Shown: positions 16,925-17,094 of the stretch, in pieces
Layout: every line of letters begins with the position of its first letter
Position numbering within the stretch: the first letter of the stretch is position 1
Origin: a virus
DNA: 64,000 nt
IMG/VR virus record: IMGVR_UViG_3300024308_000028
Location: 6,375 to 70,374 of that record
Direction: 5' to 3' (one strand)
The notes under the pieces: generated by a model
Database searches by the model: none
What the model was told of the DNA's origin: nothing
What the model saw: only the letters and a program-made list of their open reading frames with translations
Position numbers and translations under genes: made by a program

Positions 16925-17094
16925 TTTTCGTAAGCGATTATGCGGGTTTTTAGAAACGAACCAAAAACATAAATGCAAACGATGATGTTGTTCTGATGGC
17001 TGCTTAATTGCATAACCATTAGTCAGGGGTGAGTCGCCCTGATTACCAAACGACCGTGGAGTTCTCCCGTCCATGTATTAGAAACGGGGGGCCA
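16925..17094 (+). ncRNA. tmRNA-like RNA: mRNA-like domain plus pseudoknots, with no tRNA-like domain
   Basis: ataaat-GCA resume context; tag frame 16975-17007 reads ANDDVVLMAA*; stop codon sits in a hairpin loop; two H-type pseudoknots at 17021-17092. Confidence 0.78.

What the first reader, a model, noticed from the sequence alone, without database searches (positions are those of the whole stretch)
16925..17094. tmRNA mRNA-like domain (tag ANDDVVLMAA) with no tRNA-like domain
Seen: an A-rich ataaat resume context followed by GCA AAC GAT GAT GTT GTT CTG ATG GCT GCT TAA. The stop lies in the loop of a helix (ctgatgg..tgc / gca..ccattag), and two tandem H-type pseudoknots follow (agtcaggg/ccctgatt with gtcg/cgac; cgtgga/tccatg with ctcccg/cggggg). 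Established: AND...AA is the SsrA tag pattern read by SspB/ClpXP, and this layout matches the tmRNA core. However, there is no GGGG 5' acceptor strand, no G3.U70 pair and no T-arm; the 5' side is just a GNRA-capped hairpin (cgtaa-gcga-ttatg). Inference: the intact tag implies selection, so the RNA may act in trans or sequester SmpB, S1 or ribosomes. I recall that TLD-less ssrA relatives have been noted in some phages, but I know of no established function.
Basis: partly seen in the sequence, partly recalled or inferred. Interest (0 to 1): 0.8.

Follow-up and report, generated by a model that had tools for sequence, protein, structure and literature searches.

The report
Phage tmRNA mimic without tRNA end
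This phage carries a copy of the message half of the bacterial ribosome-rescue RNA (tmRNA) that has no tRNA-like half but does have an arm complementary to the host's own tmRNA, so the phage may rewrite the degradation tag that the host puts on unfinished proteins.

Summary
Window 16922-17094 of an N4-like phage encodes a tmRNA-like core: a resume context, a 10-codon frame ANDDVVLMAA with its stop codon in a helix, and two pseudoknots. Covariation supports it: 92.4% of cells are paired, 17 of 32 pairs show compensatory changes, and 0 of 500 shuffles reach the score.

ARAGORN and Rfam find no tRNA-like domain here. ARAGORN also finds none in 109 + 16 related loci.

It is one copy of a widespread, unannotated cassette, found in 391 phage records and 350 of 5,426 E. 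coli genomes. The tag is under coding selection: 20 peptides in 134 loci, with codons 1, 2 and 10 varying only at the third position.

New here: the conserved 5' motif TAGTTTTCGT (16922-16931) is the exact complement of codons 3-6 of the E. coli tmRNA tag frame. In an Alteromonas phage the motif is changed to match Alteromonas tmRNA.

Best reading (about 0.4): the RNA docks on host tmRNA and borrows its tRNA-like domain and SmpB, so its own tag is translated.

The mini-tRNA 110 nt downstream is not an obligate partner.

My searches found no paper on this family. Earlier follow-ups of this scan found it on other DNA.

The parts
16840..16924 (+). Long-stem spacer hairpin directly after tRNA-Gly. 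CTATCAATGAGTACACT (16840-16856) pairs with AGTGTACTCTTTGATAG (16908-16924), 17 positions with one U.U mismatch at the 8th position from the base. Its last three bases overlap the anti-tag motif.
   Evidence: Read. The 3' strand is invariant and the 5' strand changes only to wobble pairs in PBM-3 and KP8 (alignment A1). Similar stems precede the module in many relatives but not in all.
16922..16931 (+). Anti-tag motif TAGTTTTCGT, the exact Watson-Crick complement of E. coli K-12 tmRNA nt 97-106 (ACGAAAACTA, tag codons 3-6: Asp, Glu, Asn, Tyr).
   Evidence: 10 nt; 1 of 500 shuffles reaches this length. 57 of 62 distinct enteric relatives have at least 8 nt against the same target, versus 11 of 310 background windows. 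Complementarity to the phage's own tag frame is only 4-6 nt. The motif is adapted to the host in an Alteromonas phage.
16924..16972 (+). Pseudoknot-1-like region (inferred). Pairings: GTTTT 16924-28 with GAAAC 16953-57; TTATG 16938-42 with CATAA 16968-72; GGT 16945-47 with ACC 16960-62.
   Evidence: Pair counts for the GGT/ACC stem are GC 63; GC 46, GU 1, other 16; UA 63. The TTATG/CATAA stem is replaced by CTTTG/CAAAG, TTTGC/GCAAA or ACTTT/AAAGT in other lineages (sequences; my reading, partly in shifted register). The first stem never varies, so it is untested.
16969..16974 (+). Resume-codon context ATAAAT, with T at -5 and A at -4.
   Evidence: T(-5) and A(-4) are kept in all 13 loci listed. 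That these positions set the frame in E. coli tmRNA is recalled knowledge, not tested here.
16975..17007 (+). Tag reading frame GCA..GCT TAA = ANDDVVLMAA plus stop.
   Evidence: The same or related 10-codon frames occur in 134 loci: 32 nucleotide variants and 20 peptides. Codons 1, 2 and 10 vary at the third position only. The other two frames hold stops in 30 of 31 and 25 of 31 variants.
16993..17022 (+). Helix P5-like, with the stop codon in its loop.
   Evidence: Covariation.
17023..17054 (+). H-type pseudoknot (PK2-like).
   Evidence: Stem 1 has 5 of 6 pairs changed on both sides and 99.1% of cells paired. Stem 2 is nearly invariant (98.6% paired).
17055..17090 (+). H-type pseudoknot (PK3-like).
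   Evidence: Each stem has 3 of 6 pairs changed on both sides; 96.2% and 93.5% of cells are paired.
17095..17137 (+). Variable hairpin and insertion site. Relatives carry tRNA-like inserts here.
   Evidence: Alignment A1: PBM-3 and ECBP1 have an ~80-nt tRNA-like insert, and KP8 has a longer one.
17138..17195 (+). Conserved module, probably a separate unit: a PK4-like fold (AGTC/GACT and ATCTG/CAGAT) and the hairpin GCCAGG-TGGAATC-CCTGGC.
   Evidence: Invariant in A1. Also present in N4, which has no tag module, and in DS8. The fold itself is inferred.
17205..17270 (+). Closed mini tRNA-like RNA: acceptor TCCGGTG/CGCCGGA, A73, encoded CCA, T arm TCTGG-TTCGAGT-CCAGA, and a tetraloop hairpin in place of an anticodon arm. 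It has C3-G70, with no G3.U70.
   Evidence: T stem and hairpin covary in A1. It is annotated 'tRNA-OTHER' in KP8. Neither ARAGORN nor the Rfam tRNA model calls it. It is not linked to the tag module in other phages.

Best explanation
Window 16922-17094 is one copy of a mobile phage RNA cassette derived from tmRNA. It keeps the pseudoknot-1 region, the resume context, a 10-codon degradation-tag frame, the stop-codon helix and two pseudoknots. It has no tRNA-like domain, and the phage has no SmpB gene.

Its 5' end carries a 10-nt 'anti-tag' complementary to codons 3-6 of the host tmRNA tag frame.

Most likely the RNA anneals to host tmRNA. That blocks the host template just downstream of its resume codon and holds the phage resume codon beside it. 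Ribosomes rescued by host Ala-tmRNA and SmpB would then continue on the phage frame and add (A)ANDDVVLMAA instead of (A)ANDENYALAA.

Shown here: the structure, coding selection on the tag, the lack of a tRNA-like domain in cis, and host-matched complementarity.

Inferred: the annealing in cells, the template swap, and what the changed tag does to the tagged proteins.
For: 1. Core structure. Covariation is strong (92.4% paired, 17 of 32 pairs compensatory, 0 of 500 shuffles; for P5). Rfam gives tmRNA-family hits only over the message part (model positions 82-140).

2. The tag is read as protein. There are 20 peptides in 134 loci. All are 10 codons except one of 11. They fit AN[DE]x..[AV]A plus stop. 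Codons 1, 2 and 10 change only at the third position. The stop is TAA, TAG or TGA. The other frames are closed.

3. No tRNA-like domain in cis.
- ARAGORN finds 0 tmRNA in the window, in 109 extracts and in 16 more loci.
- In 5 whole phage genomes RF00023 matches nothing over its cut-off, and every sub-threshold match (in 2 of the 5 genomes) covers only the message part.
- In 24 of 109 extracts a TTGACW-N16-18-TANANT promoter ends exactly 13 nt before TTTTCG, so the transcript starts at the motif.
- The phage has no SmpB.

4. Anti-tag complementarity.
- Window: 10 nt against the E. coli tag frame (1 of 500 shuffles).
- Lambdoid type: 11 nt (0 of 500).
- Alteromonas phage H4/4: 11 nt against Alteromonas tmRNA (0 of 500).
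- A third lineage: 14 nt against ANDETY-type tmRNA (0 of 500).
- Cross-host: enteric copies reach only 6-7 nt against Alteromonas tmRNA, apart from a 10-nt match at another site in L028. The two marine copies still reach 9 nt against E. coli (0-5 of 500) through a shared ACGACGAAA.
- 57 of 62 enteric copies hit the same target, versus 11 of 310 background windows.
- Complementarity to the phage's own tag is 4-6 nt.
- No conserved partner in cis was found.

5. T(-5) and A(-4) before the resume codon are invariant in 13 of 13 loci. This matches the SmpB-dependent frame-setting positions of tmRNA, which is recalled knowledge.
Against: - There is no RNA-level or proteomic evidence. Expression, RNA ends, annealing and tagging are all untested.
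- A search for the single best helix between the whole 465-nt region and E. coli tmRNA was not above shuffles (74 of 200). The significance therefore rests on the motif's conservation, its fixed position and its host-matched change.
- The host-matched change rests on two host groups with a known host, plus one lineage of unknown host.
- The host of this window's phage is unknown. E. coli K-12 tmRNA stands in for it because relatives infect E. coli and Klebsiella.
- The motif could also form the first stem of pseudoknot 1 (GTTTT/GAAAC).
- In this copy 3 of the 10 motif bases are paired in the upstream long stem.
- In Ackermannviridae copies the match is only 8 nt (13 of 500 shuffles).
- I know of no precedent for a ribosome switching to a template tethered in trans.
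Confidence: 0.4

Rival explanations
1. Antisense inhibitor or decoy of host trans-translation. The RNA anneals to the host tmRNA tag frame, or soaks up SmpB or ribosomes. This blocks tagging or triggers cleavage of tmRNA. The phage frame itself is not translated.
For: The host-matched anti-tag. A tRNA-like-domain-only phage RNA (DS6A) is thought to inhibit tmRNA by titrating SmpB (passage of PMC4131195 read), so phages do seem to interfere with this pathway.
Against: A pure inhibitor would not need a frame of constant length with third-position-only variation at codons 1, 2 and 10, an in-frame stop of any of three kinds, and the T(-5)A(-4) resume context. It would also not need P5, PK2 and PK3 maintained by compensatory changes.
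Confidence: 0.2
2. Two-piece phage tmRNA. The tag module is a coding piece that works with a phage-encoded acceptor piece, here the closed mini tRNA-like RNA at 17205-17270 or another anticodon-less tRNA-like unit of the RNA island.
For: - The mini tRNA-like unit has acceptor stem, T arm, A73 and encoded CCA, and it covaries.
- It lies in the same conserved block as the tag module in Gamaleyavirus- and Kaypoctavirus-type phages.
- Other lineages carry anticodon-less tRNA-like units downstream of the module.
- The best Rfam hit is the permuted, two-piece family.
Against: - There is no G3.U70 (C3-G70), and no complementarity links the two RNAs.
- N4 has the mini-tRNA module but no tag module anywhere in its genome.
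- 4 of 5 phage genomes with the tag module lack the mini-tRNA module, and the fifth has only its first 56 nt.
- The Alteromonas copy sits alone between two protein genes.
- The acceptor part of the Rfam alignment was borrowed from tRNA-Gly and its stems did not pair.
Confidence: 0.12
3. Inert relic: a decaying fragment of a captured ssrA gene, or an attachment-site remnant, with no present function.
For: tmRNA genes are common integration sites and leave fragments (passage of PMC4131195). No database annotates the element.
Against: - Integration leaves 3' tRNA-like ends, not the message part.
- The element is kept in strictly lytic phages of unrelated families.
- It shows compensatory changes and coding selection.
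Confidence: 0.03
4. The tag frame is read on stalled ribosomes through some entry route other than host tmRNA. Examples: the RNA binds SmpB or the empty A site directly, or it is joined to a tRNA-like RNA by processing or ligation.
For: Coding selection without a tRNA-like domain. The pseudoknot ring is retained.
Against: No known mechanism transfers a peptide without an aminoacylated acceptor. This reading does not explain the host-matched anti-tag.
Confidence: 0.08

Closest known systems
One-piece bacterial tmRNA (SsrA; Rfam RF00023), e.g. E. coli K-12 ssrA
   Same: Same order of parts: pseudoknot 1, an A-rich resume context with T(-5)A(-4), a GCA resume codon, a 10-codon tag AND....AA, the stop codon in helix P5, then H-type pseudoknots.
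   Different: There is no 5' GGGG acceptor strand, D-loop analogue, P2, T arm or 3' ACCA around the core. It carries a 5' antisense match to the host tag frame, which I did not see in E. coli tmRNA itself (my reading of the sequence). The tag body is different.
Coding piece of two-piece (circularly permuted) tmRNA (Rfam RF04321, RF01849-RF01851)
   Same: This is the best-scoring Rfam family (36.1 bits, E 3.7e-5). The message part aligns almost base for base from the resume context through the tag. The RNA begins shortly before pseudoknot 1 and ends after the pseudoknots.
   Different: The score is below the gathering score of 47. There is no acceptor 5' strand at the 5' end and no cognate acceptor piece upstream. 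In the alignment, the acceptor part was filled by the T arm of tRNA-Gly and its stems did not pair.
Mycobacteriophage DS6A 'TLD only' tmRNA
   Same: It is a phage-borne partial tmRNA thought to interfere with host trans-translation (passage of PMC4131195).
   Different: It is the mirror image. DS6A keeps only the tRNA-like domain, whereas this RNA keeps only the message and pseudoknot part.
Base-pairing small RNAs with a 5'-terminal seed (including prophage-encoded anti-sRNAs of E. coli; recalled, not read here)
   Same: A short, conserved, perfectly complementary stretch lies at or near the 5' end of the transcript.
   Different: The target would be a stable RNA (tmRNA) rather than an mRNA or sRNA. 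The RNA also carries its own translated frame.

Membership tests
tmRNA, one-piece (RF00023) | tRNA-like domain: paired 5' and 3' ends forming an acceptor stem with G3.U70, a T arm, and 3' ACCA | tested here: not met
   ARAGORN finds no tmRNA in the window, in 109 extracts or in 16 further loci. RF00023 matches only model positions 82-140 at 13.2 bits, against a cut-off of 47. A scan for T arm plus G3.U70 acceptor returned only ordinary tRNAs among the candidates I inspected.
tmRNA, one-piece (RF00023) | Resume codon followed by a short tag frame ending in hydrophobic residues and a stop, conserved as protein | tested here: met
tmRNA, one-piece (RF00023) | Stop codon in helix P5, followed by pseudoknots | tested here: met
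   Covariation.
tmRNA, one-piece (RF00023) | Alanylation, SmpB binding and tagging activity | not testable with these tools
   These need biochemistry. The phage has no SmpB gene.
Two-piece / permuted tmRNA (RF04321, RF01849-51) | Permuted gene order: T arm, acceptor 3' strand and CCA, then spacer, then acceptor 5' strand, D-loop analogue and P2 immediately before pseudoknot 1 | tested here: not met
   The score is 36.1 bits against a gathering score of 47. The acceptor and P2 columns are marked non-pairing, and the T arm was taken from tRNA-Gly. In 24 of 109 relatives a promoter sits directly before the module.
Two-piece / permuted tmRNA (RF04321, RF01849-51) | A cognate acceptor piece that always accompanies the coding piece | tested here: not met
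   The mini-tRNA module and the tag module occur apart.
Trans-acting antisense RNA against host tmRNA (proposed, not an established family) | Conserved complementarity to the target that changes with the target across hosts | tested here: met
   There are two host groups with known hosts and one lineage with unknown host.
Trans-acting antisense RNA against host tmRNA (proposed, not an established family) | Physical pairing in vivo | not testable with these tools
   This needs RIL-seq or CLASH, gel shifts and compensatory mutations.

The most novel reading that the evidence does not exclude
Phages of many families carry a tmRNA 'message cartridge' with no tRNA-like domain. It base-pairs to the tag frame of host tmRNA and makes rescued ribosomes read the phage tag instead. 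This would be template swapping in trans during trans-translation: a virus reprogramming the host's proteolysis tag while borrowing the host's tRNA-like domain, SmpB, AlaRS and EF-Tu.
Probability: 0.4. Interest if true: 0.92.

Novelty: new variant of a known kind. Interest (0 to 1): 0.85.

Why it matters
tmRNA has been regarded as a single unit in which the tRNA-like and message parts are physically joined, or held together by helices in two-piece forms. This is a selected, translated-looking tag template with no acceptor of its own. It recurs in model phages (N4-like, T1-like, Vi1-like, HK620) and in 350 of 5,426 complete E. coli genomes.

That implies one of two things: an unknown way of feeding a template into rescued ribosomes, or a new kind of viral interference with ribosome rescue and ClpXP targeting.

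It is directly testable with laboratory strains and known phages. It would also explain a conserved 'empty' stretch that annotation pipelines leave blank or label as hypothetical proteins or odd tRNAs.

Tried and rejected
1. A hidden alanine-type tRNA-like domain. I scanned 109 extracts for a T arm, a 7-bp acceptor and G3.U70. The 22 candidates fell into a few repeated types. The two types I read in full were ordinary tRNAs whose true 5' strand lies next to them, and I did not inspect the rest one by one.

2. The long stem before the module as P2 with a permuted tRNA-like domain in its loop. The loops are variable, some relatives have no stem but a promoter instead, and where a T arm occurs it lies on the wrong side. 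I left this as not supported.

3. A TYMV-like aminoacylatable 3' end (ACCA right after PK3). It is present in some copies (SP058, KP8) but not in PBM-3, phiMAM1 or the T1-like copies. Rejected.

4. A partner in cis for the 5' motif. None was consistent.

5. Whole-length duplex folding of phage RNA with tmRNA gave a meaningless full-length duplex. The global best-helix test was not above shuffles (74 of 200).

6. The first pattern for window-type relatives was mis-specified in length and found nothing. I corrected it, where 17 of 114 hits had a tag frame.

7. The host of lineage L363/L366 was not found in the phage or plasmid collections or in 405 genomes.

8. A second RF00023 hit in HK620 lies inside a protein gene on the other strand and is spurious.

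9. Sequencing runs were metagenomes kept as contigs, which cannot show RNA ends or levels. Read laying was not run, so nothing is claimed about expression.

10. Pseudoknot-1 stem counts on alignment A2 were not run for the CTTTG/CAAAG stem, because most rows are invariant and the register shifts. That stem rests on my reading of the sequences.

11. Paper supplements were not available and were not consulted.

Literature. Six full-text searches (the tag peptides searched gave 0 papers) found no description of this family. I read passages only of PMC4131195 and PMC6950046. The other papers I saw only as search listings.
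Full report
**Where the window lies**

The window is bases 6375-70374 of a 70,374-base virus record that is estimated 97% complete. Its nearest relatives are N4-like podophages of E. coli and Klebsiella: Gamaleyavirus, Kaypoctavirus KP8, phAPEC5 and ECBP1. 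A 3,455-codon ORF on the minus strand would fit the virion RNA polymerase of such phages; that identification is my recollection and was not tested.

The finding lies in a 1.9-kb stretch without credible ORFs. This stretch starts with four ARAGORN-called tRNA genes at 16441-16834 and ends at a strong terminator-like hairpin at 18343-18372.

**The observation**

- ATAAAT at 16969-16974;
- GCA AAC GAT GAT GTT GTT CTG ATG GCT GCT TAA at 16975-17007;
- a helix that holds the stop codon in its loop (16993-17022);
- two H-type pseudoknots (17023-17054 and 17055-17090).

No tmRNA family of Rfam reaches its gathering score. In E-value mode, three of them match the message part:
- tmRNA_permuted RF04321: 36.1 bits, E 3.7e-5 (gathering score 47);
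- alpha_tmRNA: 17.8 bits, E 0.009;
- tmRNA RF00023: 13.2 bits, E 0.01, model positions 82-140 only.

In the RF04321 alignment, the stretch from the resume context through the tag aligns almost base for base. The acceptor part, by contrast, was filled with the T arm of the neighbouring tRNA-Gly, and its stems are flagged as non-pairing. ARAGORN calls no tmRNA.

**Structure tested on relatives**

I collected relatives from three sources: the phage collection, IMG/VR by pattern, and complete E. coli genomes.

- 92.4% of pair cells are standard pairs;
- 17 of 32 pairs show changes on both sides;
- 0 of 500 column shuffles reach any of the five measures;
- sliding the partners by 1-3 columns drops pairing to 29-42%.

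Stem 1 of pseudoknot 2 has compensatory changes at 5 of 6 pairs. Each stem of pseudoknot 3 has them at 3 of 6.

On 83 sequences (63 distinct) of all types, the outer pairs of the stop-codon helix covary. One pair is GC in 32 rows and AU in 30, and 0 of 500 shuffles reach the covariation score.

The 'GNRA-capped hairpin' at the 5' side is not conserved. Instead, several lineages keep a different pairing between the stretch after GCGA and the stretch just before the resume context: TTATG/CATAA, CTTTG/CAAAG, TTTGC/GCAAA or ACTTT/AAAGT (sequences). I read this as the hairpin of a pseudoknot-1-like fold. That part is inferred.

**The tag is read as protein**

In 134 loci there are 32 nucleotide variants and 20 peptides. 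A further 11-residue peptide, ANDDVYMAQAA, occurs in a third lineage.

All but one of the 20 peptides are 10 residues long, and one has 11. They read AN, then D or E, then variable residues, then [LKR][AMV][AV]A. The pattern of variation is that of a coding sequence:
- Codons 1, 2 and 10 vary only at the third position (GCA/GCT, AAC/AAT, all four GCN).
- The stop is TAA in 30 variants, TAG in 1 and TGA in 1.
- The other two frames contain stops in 30 of 31 and 25 of 31 variants.

An in-frame TAG lies eight codons upstream, with no ATG, GTG or TTG between it and the resume codon (my reading). Ordinary initiation is therefore unlikely. T at -5 and A at -4 before the resume codon are kept in 13 of 13 named loci.

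**Distribution**

blastn of 16908-17273 finds 391 phage records. The tag module alone recurs in unrelated groups:
- T1-like and relatives (DS8, Akira, SG01);
- Ackermannviridae (phiMAM1, Magnus, PhaxI);
- Salmonella phage 7-11;
- Carvaje;
- the N4-like Ithacavirus SP058;
- the P22-like HK620, where it lies between pR'/qut and the late terminator.

The HK620 copy matches 350 of 5,426 complete E. coli genomes: 141 places on chromosomes and 219 on plasmids of about 95-115 kb. 137 of those genomes hold at least 80% of the query. 24 of the 25 rows shown have no feature or an unrelated gene under the match, and one has a hypothetical protein; none is called tmRNA.

In the phage records, the features under the match are 'none', 'hypothetical protein' or odd tRNA calls, never tmRNA.

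**Is there a tRNA-like domain?**

There is none in cis.
- ARAGORN in tmRNA mode finds none in 109 oriented 1.8-kb extracts, and none in 16 further loci.
- In five whole phage genomes that carry the module, RF00023 matches nothing over its cut-off. Three genomes gave no match at E <= 0.001, and the matches in the other two cover only model positions 82-140.
- In 24 of 109 extracts, a TTGACW-N16-18-TANANT promoter ends exactly 13 nt before TTTTCG. The primary transcript would then begin a few bases before the module, which leaves no room for an upstream acceptor strand.
- In the Alteromonas phage the whole element is about 190 nt between two protein genes.
- The phage encodes no SmpB.

The closed mini tRNA-like RNA at 17205-17270 is real. 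Its T stem and hairpin covary, and KP8 annotates it as tRNA-OTHER. But it has C3-G70 rather than G3.U70, and it is genetically independent of the tag module:
- N4 has it, together with the module just before it, but has no tag module anywhere in its genome.
- SP058, SG01, HK620 and PhaxI have the tag module but not the mini-tRNA.
- DS8 has only the first 56 nt of that block.

**The 5' motif**

The most conserved stretch ahead of pseudoknot 1 is (GA)TAGTTTTCGT. I took E. coli K-12 tmRNA from the genome and delimited it with ARAGORN. Its nt 97-106, ACGAAAACTA, are the exact complement. They are the second base of codon 3 through the second base of codon 6 of the tag frame GCA AAC GAC GAA AAC TAC.

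I restricted the test to the 70 nt upstream of the phage resume codon and the 33-nt host tag frame.

| Phage copy | Target tmRNA | Longest perfect complement | Shuffles reaching it |
|---|---|---|---|
| Window | E. coli | 10 nt | 1 of 500 |
| Lambdoid-prophage type | E. coli | 11 nt | 0 of 500 |
| SG01 | E. coli | 10 nt | 0 of 500 |
| DS8 | E. coli | 10 nt | 4 of 500 |
| Ackermannviridae (Magnus) | E. coli | 8 nt | 13 of 500 |
| HK620 | E. coli | 8 nt | 19 of 500 |
| L028 type | E. coli | 7 nt | 56 of 500 |

Across 62 distinct enteric upstream regions, 57 have at least 8 nt against the same target core. Among background windows from the same loci, 11 of 310 do. Against each phage's own tag frame, the complement is only 4-6 nt. 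No consistent partner was found downstream in cis.

The decisive point is a divergent member, identical to Alteromonas phage vB_AspP-H4/4. Its motif is AGTTTCGTCGT. Three Alteromonas tmRNAs were fetched by one pattern scan and delimited by ARAGORN. They encode ANDETYALAA with ...AACGACGAAAC(T/A)TAC.... The phage motif is an 11-nt perfect complement of one of them (0 of 500 shuffles), whereas the enteric motifs reach only 6-7 nt at this site on Alteromonas tmRNA. Two results cut the other way: L028 has a 10-nt match to the 3' end of the Alteromonas tag frame, and the two marine copies still reach 9 nt against E. coli (0-5 of 500) through the shared ACGACGAAA.

A third lineage (L363, L366; tag ANDDVYMAQAA) has GTAAGTTTCGTCGT. 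This is a 14-nt perfect complement of the same tmRNA type (0 of 500). That 14-mer is present in 13 of the 120 tmRNA loci fetched. The host of this lineage could not be identified.

So the host difference GAAAAC versus GAAAC is mirrored in the phage as GTTTTC versus GTTTC.

Caveats:
- A search for the single best helix over the whole 465-nt region was not above shuffles (74 of 200).
- The motif could also pair with GAAAC inside pseudoknot 1.
- In this window, its first three bases are paired in the upstream long stem.
- The host of this particular phage is not known.

**How it most likely works**

The frame is selected as protein and has tmRNA's frame-setting context, but the RNA has no acceptor. 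It therefore needs a tRNA-like domain in trans. The only link to one that I could find is the antisense match to host tmRNA.

Annealing would cover the host template from 7 nt after the first base of its resume codon, a stretch that must lie in the mRNA channel when the host frame is loaded. Because the duplex is antiparallel, it would also bring the phage's pseudoknot 1 and resume codon next to the host's.

I therefore propose that the phage RNA rides on host Ala-tmRNA and SmpB and offers its own frame to the rescued ribosome. Every step after complementarity is inferred. I give this reading about 0.4.

The rivals are:
- a pure antisense inhibitor or decoy (0.2), which does not explain the coding signature;
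- a two-piece system with a phage acceptor piece (0.12), which the separability data argue against;
- another entry route to the ribosome (0.08);
- an inert relic (0.03).

**Comparison with what is known**

The element works like, and surely descends from, tmRNA. It fails the defining membership test of both the one-piece and the two-piece families, namely a tRNA-like domain.

The 2014 exhaustive survey lists phage ssrA only in eight mycobacteriophages, Bacillus phage G, and DS6A, which has a tRNA-like domain only (passages of PMC4131195). The KP8 genome paper reports six tRNA genes and mentions tmRNA only in the ARAGORN citation (passages of PMC6950046).

Searches for the tag peptides, for 'tmRNA-like', 'phage-encoded tmRNA' and related terms, and for tmRNA with N4-like found no description. 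Papers outside the held library, and supplements, were not seen.

**Earlier notes of this scan**

The same family was reported by earlier follow-ups on other DNA. One of them (e1-287033) proposed an arm complementary to host tmRNA. I took that as a lead and tested it here with shuffles, with background windows, and with a second host group.

Noticed in passing
window 17642-17773: A tRNA (Rfam tRNA, 46.4 bits) whose anticodon region holds a ~75-nt insert. ARAGORN does not call it.
   Followed up: no
window 16688-16746: A partial tRNA match (model positions 8-63, 45 bits) with D, anticodon (GAT) and T arms but no pairing acceptor stem. ARAGORN does not call it.
   Followed up: no
window 16840-16924 and 17271-17355: Long hairpins (17-18 positions) directly after tRNA-like 3' ends, each with a single pyrimidine-pyrimidine mismatch at the 8th position from the base. 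That is where a discriminator base would sit if the basal 7 bp were an acceptor stem. Related stems (CAGGTAAGAGCA..TGCTCTTTCCG) bracket variable inserts in T1-like, HK620 and Ackermannviridae copies. They may be processing sites.
   Followed up: partly
window 17138-17195; L012 701-760; L008 ~870-940: A conserved module: a pseudoknot-like fold plus the hairpin GCCAGG-TGGAATC-CCTGGC, with a T-loop-like loop. It travels independently of the tag module. It is present in N4, which lacks the tag module, and in DS8.
   Followed up: partly
L030-type loci, e.g. L011 (HK620) ~770-880, L013 (Akira) ~740-870, L023: A recurrent anticodon-less tRNA-like unit with acceptor strands TGTGGTG/CACCACA. In HK620 it is followed by G-CCA. 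It has a canonical or variant T arm and a large insert in place of the anticodon arm, and it lies downstream of the tag module.
   Followed up: partly
L011 (HK620) 244-951: In HK620 the tag module lies inside the short constitutive pR' transcript, between qut and the late terminator, so a lysogen might express it.
   Followed up: no
E. coli plasmids of ~95-115 kb: 219 of the 360 matching places in complete E. coli genomes are on large plasmids, probably phage-plasmids. The match there covers only 66% of the HK620 query, at about 74% identity.
   Followed up: no
L028 upstream region (-45 from resume codon): TTAAGCGGCT, just after the anti-tag, is a 10-nt complement of the 3' end of the Alteromonas tag frame. 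It is one mismatch from the complement of the E. coli tag end (GCAGCTTAA). This may be a second antisense block, or it may be chance.
   Followed up: no
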